Below are positions 3,248 through 56,461 of a stretch of DNA of 64,000 nt, piece after piece. The position numbers and the translations under genes were made by a program. Under the pieces are notes generated by a model that was not told the origin of the DNA, searched no databases, and saw only the letters and a list, made by a program, of their open reading frames with translations. Every line of letters starts with the position of its first letter. Position 1 is the first letter of the stretch. This DNA comes from Chrysomallon squamiferum (Eukaryota; Animalia; Mollusca). The stretch lies in NCBI GenBank assembly GCA_012295275.1, contig CM022671.1, positions 36,642,001 to 36,706,000 on the forward strand. The letters are read 5' to 3'.

Positions 3248-6200
3248 ATGTATGACAGTTTTGATATTGATGATTATGACTTTGAGGAGGAACAGCAGCC
3301 TCCTCACAAAAAGGAGTGGTATCAGTTGCGAAAGCCTGTTTGTCCATACATCTGTTCTACCCCACTTGACTTTAACATTGAGCGAGATTTCCTTAACAAA
3401 AATGTCTACCCAAATATTGCTGAATTTGCTAAAAACAGAGGCGTGGTCTTCTCCACCACTGACATCAGCTGGACTGCAGAGGACAAAGTGTTCTCTAGTG
3501 GTGAGCTGCTGCGCTTTCTACTAGACTCAATCAGCAAGTGCTCTCCATTCTTCATCTGTCTGCTTGGTGAATGCTATGGTCCCCACAGACAGGGCAAGTG
3601 GACGCCACTGCCCGAAAAGGTGACCACTGTCCCCGAGAACTGCGATCCTCTGGACAAGAACTTCATGTTTGCTGCCTCGGCAGGGTACAGCTGGGTTCTG
3701 CAGGAGTCTCACCAAGGCTGCAGCATCACTGAACTGGAAATCATCCACGCTGCCTTCCTTGCCGATGATGGTCACAGCTTCTTTTACTTCCGGCAGCCTG
3801 AGCATCTTGAGGAGAAATACTTGTTGTCAGAGGAACACGAAGTCGACAGACTGTACCATGAGGAAAATGAACATTCCGGTTTGAAGATTAAAGACCTCAG
3901 ACAGAGAATTGTGAAGAAAGATTTACCTGTCAAGTACTTCTCAACTCTAGAACAGCTGGCCAACCTTGTCTTAAATGACTGGATTGACCTTATTGATCTG
4001 ATGTACCCACCTCTAGTCAAACCTTTTAACTTCTTAGGTAACTTTTTTACTTTATCTTTTGTCTGTTTGCACTTGTTTCTGTTGCATTGTCTCTTTTCAA
4101 ATTATTCCTTTTGTTATTGTAGTTGTTATCTCATTTTCTGTACTATTATACTATATTCTGTATGTAGTTATTACTCACTTCATTCTGAAACAGTTTTTTG
4201 TCTGTAGTTAATAGTAACTTTATCTGAAGTTACTAATCATTTAACTCCTTGAGTGTCTGTAGCTTAAACTTTACAGTGAAATGTATAGTTTTGTTTTTGA
4301 CAGTGAAATGTATAGTTTTGTTTTTTACAGTGAAAAGTATAGTTTTGTTTCAGACAGTGAAATGTATAGTTTTGTTTTTGACAGTGAAATGTATAGTTTT
4401 GTTTTGGACAGTGAAATGTATAGTTTTGTTTCAGACAGTGAAATGTATAGTTTTGTTTCAGACCGTGAAATGTATAGTTTTGTTTCAGACCGTGAAATGT
4501 ATAGTTTTGTTTCAGACAGTGAAATGTATAGTTTTGTTTCAGACAATGAAACATATCATGAATGGCTGATTCAGGAATCATTTGCTGAAAATCGTCGCAG
4601 TGTTTATGTGAGTTGTCCAGAGAATGAGAGCGTCATCCAGCAGCTGTCTGAGTTTGCCCTCACTTCACTGGACACCGTCTGCTCAGACTACATGTGTGAA
4701 CAAACAAACAACAGATACAGACACTCCTCTTCAGTGTTTGGATATAATAGGTTTGTCTCCTCATATCTTTATACAACAAAAAACACACCATCTCACATTG
4801 TACATTAGTTTATCTGTACACATGATACTTTATGAAACAAAAAACACTGTTTTACATTGTACATTAGTTTATCTGTACACATGGTACTTTATAAAACAAA
4901 AAACACATTAGTGAGTTGAACTTTGTATTTTACATTGTGCATTCTATACATATGGTGTGTTTTTGTTGCAGGCCGATGTTGGACAGCACCAAGTACAAGT
5001 CAGTACTGTGTTTGACTGGAGACCGAGGGGCAGGCAAGTCATCCATTATTGCCAAGTGGCTGCAAGAGTTTGATTATCTGAGTGCAGACGTCCCCCTCAT
5101 CAGTCACTTCATCGGCTGCAGCTCTCACAGCACTGACATCTGTGTGTTCCTAGACAAGTGTGTGCAAGTGTTACGTCAACACTTTCTTAATCAGGGTAAG
5201 CATTTATGTGAGTTTTTATCAGTCTGAGAGAACATATATTTTAATGTTTTAACTGAAAAAGAATATCGTCCTTCCCCTGTAGTTCTAACACAGACACAGC
5301 CCAACATATCCATGTTCAGCCACACACACACACACACACAAACATGAATTTCCACTGTTCTGATATTTGTGTGAGGTGTTTTGTATATTTTTGTTTTTAG
5401 ATAACATGGAAGCAGACTTGGATCACTTACATGAATGCTGCAGTTTCGAGGACAAACCAAACAATTTTCGAGATCTTTGTGAAGCCTTTATAGCTGCTGT
5501 GTCATTGGGACCATGTGTCCTTGTGCTTGATGGAATAGATGAACTTTGTGGAAGTGTCAGCCTTTCCCCTCAAACTGTAATTATATTTTAGTCACATTAT
5601 TTCACTGCAATGTCAAGAAAGTAGAGAATGAATTGTTAAAGATGTAAATTTGGAAGACATTAATAATGTTGTTTAATAATTCATTCTGATTTAATAGTAC
5701 AGTATAAGTTTAATAGTACACTGTGAGTTTAATATTACAGTGTGAGTTTAGTAGTACAGTGTGAGTTTAGTAGTACAGTGTGAGTTTAGTAGTACAGTGT
5801 GTGTTTATTAGTACAATGTGAGTTTAATATTACAATGTGAGTTTAGTATTACAGTGTGAGTTTAGTAGTACAGTGTGTGTTTATTAGTACAATGTGAGTT
5901 TAATATTACAATGTGAGTTTAGTAGTACAGTGTGTGTTTATTAGTACAGTGTGAGTTTAGTAGTACAGTGTGAGTTTAATGGTGCAGTATGTATTTAATG
6001 GTACACTGTGAGTTTAGTAGTACAGTGTGAGTTTAGTAGTACAGTGTGAGTTTAATGGTGCAGTATGTATTTAATGGTACACTGTGAGTTTAGTAGTACA
6101 GTGTGAGTTTAATGGTGCAGTATGTATTTAATGGTACACTGTGAGTTTAGTAGTACAGTGTGAGTTTAATAGTACAGCATGTGTTTAATAGTACACTGTG

Positions 6201-55100: not shown

Positions 55101-56461
55101 GTTTTCAGATTTCCTTCCCTGTTCTTAAATACAACAGTTGTCTCCCTTGGTGGGCCAGTTTGTACGTGTGGATACATTTTACATTAGTTAGCCTGGGTTA
55201 CATCATCGTAGCTGCCTACAAACAAGTGAGTCACTTACTGCAAATAATACTACTGTCACTAGTACAACTACTAGAACTGTTATTAATGCAGTTACTATAC
55301 TTCTGTTATTTCTCTGTGAATAGTGATCGTGACATTTACATACACATCATAATTGTGATTGCTGAAGACAAAATGTATTACTTCCTGCTGTTCTCTCACT
55401 GAACATTTCAGAGAAAACTTTACTGTTTTCAAACAAAGCTAAAATTTCTCTTGCAGAACATTGCTGGTCTCTACAGAGTTCTCTACATCGTATTTACAAT
55501 TACATCAATGTCTACATTTGGTCTTCTCTATGACAATCGGTGAGTTAGTTTTCACTCACACCTCAAATAACAATGAACTGTGTGTATACTGCTCACACTA
55601 CAAATAACAGTCACCTGTGAACTGTACATCACTCACACTACAAATAACAGTCACCTATGAATTATACATCACTCACATCTCAAATAACATCACCTATGAA
55701 TTATACATCACTCACATCTCAAATAACATCACCTATGAATTATACATCACTCACATCTCAAATAACAGTCACCTATGAATTATACATCACTCACATCTCA
55801 AATAACAGTCACCTATGAATTATACATCACTCACATCTCAAATAACAGTCACCTATGAATTATACATCACTCACATCTCAAATAACATCACCTATGAATT
55901 ATACATCACTCACATCTCAAATAACAGTCACCTATGAATTATACATAACTCACATCTCAAATAACAGTCACCTATGAATTATACATCACTCACATCTCAA
56001 ATAACATCACCTATGAATTATACATCACTCACATCTCAAATAACAGTCACCTATGAATTATACATCACTCACATCTCAGATAACATCACCTATGAATTGT
56101 ACATCACTCACATCTCAAATAACAGTCACCTATGAATTATACATCACTCACATCTCAAATAACATCACCTGTGAATTGTACATCACTCACATCTCAAATA
56201 ACAGTCACCTGTGAATTGTACACTACTAACACTATGAACAACATTCTGTAAATTATAAGTTATTTATGTTTCAGGAAGTGGGCGGTGCTGATGGAGATGT
56301 GTAGATGTGCTGTTGTCACAGTTGTCGTGTACGTGCTGGGATTTGAACTCAGTTACTATGTAGCTGACGCACTCTGCATTGTTCACTTGATATCGCTTGC
56401 CTTGTGGGGATGTGTGACGTTTGTACAATGTGTGAAAATAACCAGAAAAAAACTTAGCTGA
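51038..56461 (+). CDS. AGMO: Alkylglycerol monooxygenase (fatty acid hydroxylase family), 11 exons, 444 aa
   Basis: Exons 51038-51151, 51490-51617, 52158-52309, 52565-52668, 52904-52999, 53452-53584, 53803-53888, 54779-54913, 55109-55225, 55457-55539, 56275-56461 (1335 nt). Motifs [77 protein letters not shown]; ends in a KKxx ER-retrieval signal (KKLS). Confidence 0.96.
51630..52125 (+). repeat. (GT)n-based compound repeat in AGMO intron 2
   Basis: GT runs interspersed with ATTGGTGTGCATGTCTTTCT units. Confidence 0.95.
53000..53463 (+). repeat. AGMO intron 5: 24-bp array starting at the donor, plus a 45-bp duplication of the acceptor
   Basis: GT|ATTTACATTAAATATTTATATTAT units 53000-53388; TTACATGTGTTTGTGTTGTTGTAG|GTGATAGGACAG occurs at both 53383 and 53428. 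Confidence 0.93.
53906..54645 (+). repeat. 14-bp minisatellite (ATCTCTTACTAAAC) in AGMO intron 7
   Basis: About 50 copies starting about 18 nt after the donor. Confidence 0.95.
54930..55095 (+). repeat. Repeat of about 49 bp, 3 copies, filling AGMO intron 8
   Basis: AAATAAGTTATCGCTGACAAATGTAATATTTTAAATACTGTACATTGT-like units. Confidence 0.9.
55552..56230 (+). repeat. 38-40-bp minisatellite in AGMO intron 10
   Basis: TCACCTATGAATTATACATCACTCACATCTCAAATAACAG, about 17 copies, starting about 12 nt after the donor. Confidence 0.95.

What the first reader, a model, noticed from the sequence alone, without database searches (positions are those of the whole stretch)
4273..56230. Splice-site-anchored minisatellites: introns filled by tandem amplification of their own exon-intron junctions
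Seen in the sequence: about 16 introns in three unrelated genes each hold a different private minisatellite (units 14-59 bp). In six arrays the terminal unit overlaps the functional splice site: donors at 8505, 16144 and 39376, and acceptors at 4542, 17743 and 18891. There is also a two-copy acceptor duplication at 53383-53463. Most other arrays begin or end within about 20 nt of a junction. The arrays extend into the intron only, and the exon copy stays intact. Established: tandem duplication of AG|GT sites is a proposed route of intron gain. Inference: such systematic anchoring suggests either a mutational process nucleated at exon boundaries (for example R-loop, nucleosome-edge repair, or small-circle/rolling-circle amplification) or selection on such arrays, and the spliceosome must choose one site among many near-identical decoys. 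I do not know whether this has been described for this lineage.
Basis: partly seen in the sequence, partly recalled or inferred. Interest (0 to 1): 0.85.

Follow-up and report, generated by a model that had tools for sequence, protein, structure and literature searches.

The report
"Mirage" minisatellites in mollusc introns
In three genes of a mollusc (likely a snail), many introns are filled by head-to-tail repeats and several repeats copy the exon edge with its splice signal, yet the RNA seen uses only the copy next to the exon; this is a repeat type already known from lancelets and humans, and here it crosses splice sites no more often than random duplication in such short introns would.

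Summary
By one fixed rule, 18 arrays (units 14-59 bp) lie in 16 of 31 modelled introns of a TTC41-like gene, a chitin-binding-like membrane gene and AGMO. Five arrays and one 45-bp duplication carry exon sequence; the 17743 array carries the AG only. RNA contigs use the exon-adjacent copy at 8505, 16144, 17743 and 18891, and 4542 indirectly. A second data set covers the arrays and lacks one 59-bp unit, so they are not assembly artefacts. These are 'mirage' minisatellites (amphioxus; human F7, CBS, 6-16). The scan has found this before on other genomes. 'Splice-site anchoring' is mostly geometry: with each array reduced to one unit, its intron has a median length of 154 nt, and 5 of 18 arrays cross a junction against 4.8 expected (p 0.55). 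A real residue remains. Arrays are 3.7 times denser in these introns than elsewhere in the window, favour short introns, and 14 of 18 lie within 25 nt of a junction against 4.5 expected if placed over all introns. This comes from one hand-picked window and needs a genome-wide test.

The parts
3248..20606 (+). TTC41-like gene (DUF4062/NACHT-like/TPR), 18 coding exons, 1548 aa; 11 of 17 introns carry arrays
   Evidence: Open spliced frame; RNA joints and contig lengths agree; 55% identity to a gastropod homologue over residues 21-1548; hits
4273..4551 (+). 27-bp x10.3 acceptor mirage; authentic acceptor 4542|4543 is the last copy; 5 upstream AG decoys would be in frame without a stop
   Evidence: acceptor supported indirectly by RNA contig arithmetic and homologue alignment
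4767..4906 (+). 59-bp x2.3 intronic repeat, 16 nt after the donor; run X5 lacks one unit
   Evidence: (joint 4825->4885)
5671..6625 (+). 19-bp x50 intronic array, ends 22 nt before the acceptor
7304..7820 (+). 30-bp x17 mid-intron array (214 and 442 nt from the junctions)
8483..9113 (+). 38-bp x16.6 donor mirage; first copy (8505|8506) used; 12 identical TAA|GTTAGT decoys
   Evidence: RNA contig X1 record 2 joins 8505 to 9211
10019..10812 (+). 29-bp x27 intronic array, ends 23 nt before the acceptor
11679..12543 (+). 25-bp x~34 intronic array (105 nt after the donor by TRF)
12685..12804 (+). 42-bp x2.9 intronic repeat; run X5 shows a 42-nt skip (allele or contig collapse)
14305..14761 (+). 25-bp x18 array, 161 nt after the donor in a long intron
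16119..16771 (+). 32-bp x20 donor mirage; first copy (16144|16145) used; 8 of 20 downstream copies keep GT; decayed copies trail to about 16834
   Evidence: RNA joint in X1, X2, X3
16900..17743 (+). 33-bp x25 array abutting acceptor 17743|17744; unit carries an in-register TAG but no exon sequence
17936..18895 (+). 38-bp x25 acceptor mirage; last copy (18891|18892) used although 10 of 27 upstream anchors score higher (4.7-6.3 vs 0.7)
   Evidence: RNA joint in X1, X2, X3
19216..19366 (+). 34-bp x4.4 intronic array, 13 nt after the donor
39109..42906 (+). Gene 2, partial model (4 exons; 5' exons not placed): weak CBM14 chitin-binding-like domain, a predicted TM helix and a tail
   Evidence: Open spliced frame; Pfam CBM_14 E 0.0037, below its cutoff; no RNA laid
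39359..39638 (+). 46-bp x6 donor mirage; predicted donor 39376|39377; all 6 copies keep GTAAG, 3 decoys score higher; every decoy gives a stop
   Evidence: no RNA laid
51038..56461 (+). AGMO-like fatty-acid-hydroxylase gene, 11 exons, 444 aa; 4 of 10 introns carry arrays, plus a GT-derived tract in intron 2
   Evidence: Open spliced frame; Pfam FA_hydroxylase E 7.9e-9; the name AGMO is recalled from sequence resemblance
53001..53388 (+). 24-bp x16 array starting at the T of the donor GT
53383..53463 (+). 45-bp two-copy acceptor duplication; downstream acceptor 53451|53452 keeps the frame, upstream 53406|53407 adds 15 codons with a stop
   Evidence: no RNA laid
53908..54644 (+). 14-bp x53 array, 19 nt after the donor
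54934..55086 (+). 48-bp x3.2 array (20 and 22 nt from the junctions); unit has an 89% copy in intron 6 at 53629-53666
55552..56222 (+). 40-bp x17 array, 12 nt after the donor

Best explanation
These are ordinary intronic minisatellites in a tandem-repeat-rich mollusc genome, of which five (plus one two-copy duplication) include the exon edge and its splice site ('mirages'); they likely began as chance 14-59 bp tandem duplications in short (about 80-180 nt) introns and likely survive because splicing still uses the exon-adjacent copy. Shown: the arrays, the intact exons, RNA use of the first donor copy and last acceptor copy in the TTC41-like gene, a one-unit length allele in another data set, and a junction-crossing rate equal to random placement in the arrays' own collapsed introns. 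Inferred steps: (1) slippage or unequal exchange duplicates 14-59 bp. (2) Duplications wholly inside an exon are purged; those inside the intron or across one junction are tolerated, so arrays always extend into the intron, which is a survival filter and not a direction of growth. (3) Unequal exchange expands and homogenises the units, private to each locus. (4) Exon definition and 5'-to-3' scanning choose the shortest exon, and rare decoy use is mostly removed by nonsense-mediated decay because nearly all decoys give stop codons. (5) The extra closeness to exons likely reflects the age of short conserved introns plus erosion of unique flanks down to the donor and polypyrimidine limits (ends pile up 12-23 nt from junctions).
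For: Collapsed introns with arrays have a median of 154 nt, and 11 of 16 are 181 nt or shorter. Crossing 5 of 18 vs 4.2-5.6 expected; 6 of 26 vs 6.9 with the relaxed set. RNA from three samples uses terminal copies. Decoys as strong as or stronger than the real site exist (12 identical donors at 8505; 10 higher-scoring acceptor anchors before 18891), so the choice is positional, as shown experimentally for F7 donors (PMC1557585 abstract). Stops on decoy use: 16 of 16 at 8505, 5 of 5 at 39376, 26 of 27 at 18891, 28 of 28 at 17743, 4 of 5 tested at 16144, and the AGMO duplication. In none of the 8 tests where the next unit-length of flank crosses a junction did the flank resemble the unit at p<0.05 (best 0.055 and 0.071), so the near-junction arrays are not aged mirages. 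Array flanks (80 nt) hit nothing elsewhere in the window, giving no sign of delivery by a repeated element.
Against: Arrays are 1.5 per collapsed kb in these introns vs 0.4 elsewhere (18 vs 13; binomial p 0.0003) and have more copies (p 0.003). Array-bearing introns are shorter once collapsed (154 vs 308 nt, p 0.03), the opposite of a uniform per-base rate. Over all introns, 14 of 18 lie within 25 nt vs 4.5, also in the relaxed set (16 of 26 vs 6.8, p 0.0003). For arrays of 10 or more copies the own-intron test is borderline (mean quantile p 0.037). Flank erosion and intron age explain this but are untested. The 4542 decoys are in frame without stops (9 of 9), so NMD would not police them. Contigs drop rare isoforms and 19 of 34 joints were not displayed, so low-level decoy use is not excluded.
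Confidence: 0.62

Rival explanations
1. A mutational bias makes tandem duplications arise preferentially at or near exon edges, for example recombination or repair synthesis primed in conserved exons that slips when it enters divergent intron flanks, or transcription/nucleosome-edge damage. Junction-crossing mirages are then one part of an exon-proximal hot zone.
For: 3.7-fold higher array density in these introns, shorter collapsed introns, and 14 of 18 within 25 nt vs 4.5 over all introns. The 39359 array crosses a donor although 1343 nt of free intron were available (own-intron probability about 0.05). A 38-nt copy shared by AGMO introns 6 and 8 points to local template switching. Earlier scan notes report the same pattern in other invertebrate genomes (unchecked).
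Against: The window was chosen for this pattern, so p-values are post hoc. 'Other' arrays may lie beside exons I could not annotate, and long introns and intergenic DNA may be younger (MITE-like inserts), which dilutes the rate without any exon effect. The own-intron threshold-free test is not significant (p 0.13; relaxed 0.43).
Confidence: 0.25
2. The arrays are selected: decoy splice sites or repeat tracts tune splicing efficiency, intron length or expression, or supply in-frame isoforms (for example 9-residue inserts at 4542).
For: The 27-bp acceptor decoys at 4299-4515 would add in-frame repeats without stops, and 5 keep AG with scores equal to the real site. Human 6-16 and CBS use some pseudo-donors (PMC1557585, Introduction).
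Against: Units are unrelated between introns; nearly all other decoys give stops; RNA contigs show the terminal site only; homologues have no insert at 4542; copy number varies between data sets.
Confidence: 0.08
3. The arrays are assembly artefacts or pieces delivered by transposable elements.
For: Short-read contigs cannot confirm copy numbers; one 42-nt skip may be a contig collapse. Helitron-type elements of molluscs are recalled to carry internal tandem repeats (from memory, not checked).
Against: Units diverge from each other by 6-25% with local variant patterns. Run X5 has depth in all 30 bins, 20-145 in the array bins listed against 39-56 in typical unique bins. Six units contain the host gene's own exon sequence. 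Flanks are not repeated in the window.
Confidence: 0.04

Closest known systems
Amphioxus 'mirage' minisatellites (Adh3, globins BflGb6/BflGb9, troponin C, PGBD5); read in passages of PMC3087553 and PMC3902484; the original Adh3 paper (Canestro 2002) was not available and is known to me only through these
   Same: [quoted passage not shown]
   Different: Lineage (mollusc, likely gastropod). Here they are set among many non-crossing arrays, which allows a positional null to be tested. No intron gain and no somatic instability shown here.
Human donor-spanning VNTRs: F7 IVS7 (37 bp), 6-16 intron 2, CBS IVS13, LAMIN B2, PDGF intron 4 (PMC1557585: abstract and Introduction read)
   Same: First monomer spans the exon-intron boundary, the donor is reiterated downstream, and the most upstream donor is normally used, as at 8505 and 16144 here
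   Different: Those are single cases per gene and donor-side; here there are several per gene and acceptor-side cases where the last copy is used. 6-16 and CBS also use nearby pseudo-sites; no such use was seen here, at contig resolution only.
Rogers model of intron gain by tandem duplication of an AG/GT proto-splice site (as cited in PMC3087553)
   Same: Tandem duplication that copies splice signals
   Different: That model duplicates exonic sequence and creates a new intron. Here existing junctions are duplicated into existing introns and no new intron is evident.

Membership tests
Mirage minisatellite | Tandem repeat whose unit spans an exon-intron boundary and includes exon sequence | tested here: met
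   4542 (11 of 14 exon bases match the neighbouring copy), 8505 (23/23), 16144 (25/26), 39376 (17/18), 53451 duplication (12/12); 18891 marginal (4 nt). RNA-defined boundaries for the TTC41-like gene only.
Mirage minisatellite | Same feature for the 17743 array and the other 12 intronic arrays | tested here: not met
   17743: 4 of 12 exon bases match; none of 8 junction-crossing flank tests significant. These are plain intronic minisatellites.
Mirage minisatellite | Many but not all units keep the AG or GT | tested here: met
   GT in 15 of 17, 9 of 21 and 6 of 6 copies; AG in 6 of 10 and 26 of 28 anchors
Mirage minisatellite | Normal splicing is preserved (authentic terminal site used) | tested here: met
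   RNA contigs at 8505, 16144, 17743, 18891 directly and 4542 by length arithmetic; major isoform only; 39376 and 53451 have no RNA
Mirage minisatellite | Length polymorphism between haplotypes | tested here: inconclusive
   One-unit loss seen in X5 for the 59-bp non-crossing repeat and possibly the 42-bp one; contigs cannot size the long junction arrays
Mirage minisatellite | Somatic instability (reported for Adh3) | not testable with these tools
   Needs single-molecule data from tissues of one animal
Intron gain by tandem duplication (Rogers model) | A new intron formed from duplicated exonic AG/GT sequence | tested here: not met
   Arrays lie in GT-AG introns with unique flanks and the protein has no insertion against homologues at the four junctions shown. 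Intron positions in homologous genes could not be read, so the age of each intron is untested.

The most novel reading that the evidence does not exclude
This mollusc has a genome-wide mutational hot zone at exon edges: tandem duplications are nucleated within a few tens of bases of exons (for example by exon-primed recombination in a polymorphic genome) and then replace the unique intron sequence up to the minimal splice signals, so that introns turn into private minisatellites. Mirages would be the visible tip of a general, so far unquantified process across invertebrates, and thousands of natural decoy arrays would form a ready test of exon definition, including acceptor choice against stronger upstream AGs.
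Probability: 0.22. Interest if true: 0.55.

Novelty: new member of a known kind. Interest (0 to 1): 0.27.

Why it matters
As it stands it extends a known repeat type to molluscs: I found no mollusc report in the paper searches, which cover open-access text only. It shows that the striking splice-site overlap needs no special mechanism once short ancestral introns are modelled. It is a practical trap for gene annotation and short-read splice mapping. The acceptor arrays are useful natural tests of 3' splice-site choice, since the last AG wins over identical or stronger upstream ones. If the exon-proximal excess held genome-wide it would point to an unquantified mutational bias shaping intron size.

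Tried and rejected
No whole genome is held, so no genome-wide test. Two metagenome scans with TTC41-like exons found no relatives (136 and 205 pattern matches, none confirmed), so no orthologous introns. RNA support for gene 2, the defensin and AGMO was not obtained; those junctions rest on open frames and Pfam hits. The idea that near-junction arrays are aged mirages was tested and rejected (0 of 8 crossing flanks at p<0.05; 3 of 36 flank tests were significant, all on intron-internal sides, showing decayed trailing copies). Delivery by repeated elements: no flank hits within the window (only 64 kb searched). The intron-only shuffle gives small p-values but was rejected as a null for crossing because it forbids it. 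Rows left out of the core set: microsatellites, TRF scores under 100, the GT-derived tract 51631-52124 and the 45-bp duplication; 8 such rows were added back in the relaxed set. The stop flags for the 39376 donors had a frame slip and were redone; the acceptor anchor for the 45-bp duplication was misplaced, and that case rests. The original Adh3 mirage paper was not held. Splice scores come from a matrix of only 30 sites of this window and are rough.
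Full report
Setting. No genome is held for this window. 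The first coding exon of gene 1 hits mollusc TTC41-like proteins best (a gastropod at 60%, abalone at 56%, bivalves at 50-53%), so the organism is a mollusc, likely a gastropod (inference). I built gene models from the sequence: an 18-exon, 1548-aa TTC41-like gene (3248-20606), a partial 4-exon gene with a weak CBM14 hit (39109-42906), a defensin, and an 11-exon, 444-aa fatty-acid-hydroxylase gene that I call AGMO from recalled resemblance. All have open spliced frames and GT-AG introns. For gene 1, RNA contigs of three samples show nine displayed joints matching the model, and X1 record 2 also joins 5576|6648, 7089|8263 and 8505|9211; the spliced distance from 9887 to 19447 is 1036 nt in both model and contig. 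Gene 2 and AGMO have no RNA support.

Observation. Arrays make up 46% of intron sequence in these genes and 7% of the remaining non-coding DNA. Five arrays cross into an exon (4542, 8505, 16144, 18891, 39376), as does the 45-bp duplication in AGMO. The 17743 array only abuts its acceptor: it reiterates a TAG in register but copies no exon. Of the 12 other arrays, 8 end within 25 nt of a junction and 4 are 100-214 nt away. A run from another study (X5, about 1% different from the window) has depth in all 30 bins of 2900-21000, shows small indels inside arrays and lacks one 59-bp unit, so the arrays are real and at least one varies in length. Contigs cannot size the long arrays.

Which copy is spliced. 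RNA uses the first copy at donors 8505 and 16144 and the last copy at acceptors 17743 and 18891. For 4542 the joint was not displayed, but X1 record 1 would end at 4715 and record 2 begin at 4717 if the last copy is used, the one-base gap expected at a heterozygous site, and two homologues align without an insert. The rule is the shortest exon. Site strength does not explain it: 12 decoys are identical to donor 8505, and 10 of 27 upstream anchors score 4.7-6.3 against 0.7 for acceptor 18891 on a rough matrix from this window. Decoy use would give a stop in 16 of 16 (8505), 5 of 5 (39376), 28 of 28 (17743), 26 of 27 (18891), 4 of 5 tested (16144) and in the AGMO duplication; the 27-bp array at 4542 is the exception, with 9 of 9 upstream positions in frame and open, 5 of them with AG. 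Contigs drop rare isoforms and 19 of 34 joints were not shown, so minor decoy use is open.

Is the anchoring more than chance? Reduced to one unit per array, the array-bearing introns have a median of 154 nt, five of them 82-112 nt. A duplication that crosses one junction leaves the exon intact and can be tolerated, so the fair null allows it. Under that null, within each array's own intron, 4.2-5.6 of 18 arrays should cross and 5 do (p 0.40-0.74). Within 25 nt: 14 vs 9.4-10.0 (p 0.004-0.013), but that threshold was picked after seeing the data; at 50 nt p is 0.25, the threshold-free test gives p 0.13, and a relaxed set of 26 repeats gives p 0.43. Arrays of 10 or more copies are borderline (p 0.037). 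If the null does not fix the intron, a signal appears: 14 of 18 within 25 nt vs 4.5 (p<0.0001), 5 crossing vs 2.2 (p 0.055), 16 of 26 vs 6.8 in the relaxed set. Arrays are also denser in these introns than in the rest of the window (1.5 vs 0.4 per collapsed kb, p 0.0003), and their collapsed introns are shorter than array-free ones (154 vs 308 nt, p 0.03). So the non-random part is 'short introns near exons', not 'on the splice site'. All p-values are from a window selected for this look, and unannotated exons may lie beside some of the 13 other arrays.

Other tests. The near-junction arrays are not aged junction copies: none of 8 junction-crossing flanks resembled the unit at p<0.05. Flanks have no copies elsewhere in the window, and units are private apart from a 38-nt, 89% copy of the AGMO intron-8 unit in intron 6. 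Two scans for orthologous loci found nothing.

Mechanism. The most likely account (0.62) is neutral: chance tandem duplication in short introns, purifying selection that removes exon-internal events, expansion and homogenisation by unequal exchange, positional splice-site choice, and NMD for most errors. The pile-up of ends 12-23 nt from junctions fits erosion of unique flanks down to the splice signals once the array supplies intron length; this step is inferred and untested. The main rival (0.25) is a true exon-edge bias in where duplications arise. Selection for the arrays (0.08) and artefact or transposon delivery (0.04) have little support.

Known precedent. PMC3087553 (abstract and passages read) describes tandem repeats spanning donor or acceptor boundaries in amphioxus globins and Adh3, named 'mirages', with normal splicing, haplotype length variation and a proposed link to intron gain; it calls the generating mechanism unclear. 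PMC3902484 (passages) adds PGBD5 and troponin C. PMC1557585 (abstract, Introduction) lists human F7, 6-16, CBS, LAMIN B2 and PDGF and shows upstream-first donor choice for F7. The other papers were seen as listings only; none of those listings showed a mollusc report or a genome-wide positional test, but the library lacks most subscription papers. No supplements were read. I recalled the term 'mirage' before searching; earlier notes of this scan on other genomes reach the same label and are not independent evidence.

Verdict. Real, correctly located, and a new lineage example of a known kind. The headline claim of systematic splice-site anchoring is not supported for junction crossing; a weaker exon-proximal excess remains and is testable with a whole genome. 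Interest 0.27.

Noticed in passing
window 53629-53666 and 54934-55086: The 48-bp unit of AGMO intron 8 has an 89% identical 38-nt single copy in intron 6, 1.3 kb upstream; it suggests a templated, non-tandem copy between introns of one gene.
   Followed up: partly
window 46925-48247: Two-exon arthropod-type defensin gene (Pfam Defensin_2, E 8e-14), with a likely further intron in the 3' UTR; its coding intron has no array.
   Followed up: partly
window 60704-62779 (- strand): Intronless 691-aa ORF with signal-like N-terminus, leucine-rich repeats, a TM segment and a TIR-like tail, likely a Toll-like receptor (domains judged by eye).
   Followed up: no
window 43099-43712: 80-nt inverted arms, 88% complementary, 454 nt apart: a MITE-like insert behind gene 2.
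   Followed up: no
window 59373-59416: 19-nt hairpin within a GC-richer patch (about 59360-60070) that may be another non-autonomous element.
   Followed up: no
window 37674-37701 and 37758-37983: Possible small upstream exon of gene 2 (AG...GT bounded) followed about 55 nt later by an 18/54-bp array; if real, it would add another exon-proximal array now counted as 'other'.
   Followed up: no
window 4299-4542: The acceptor decoys are in frame and open, and the four nearest the exon are identical in their last 20 nt; a candidate for 9-residue insert isoforms.
   Followed up: partly
window 51631-52124: AGMO intron 2 is filled by a GT-derived complex repeat from 13 nt after the donor to 33 nt before the acceptor; left out of the core set.
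   Followed up: partly
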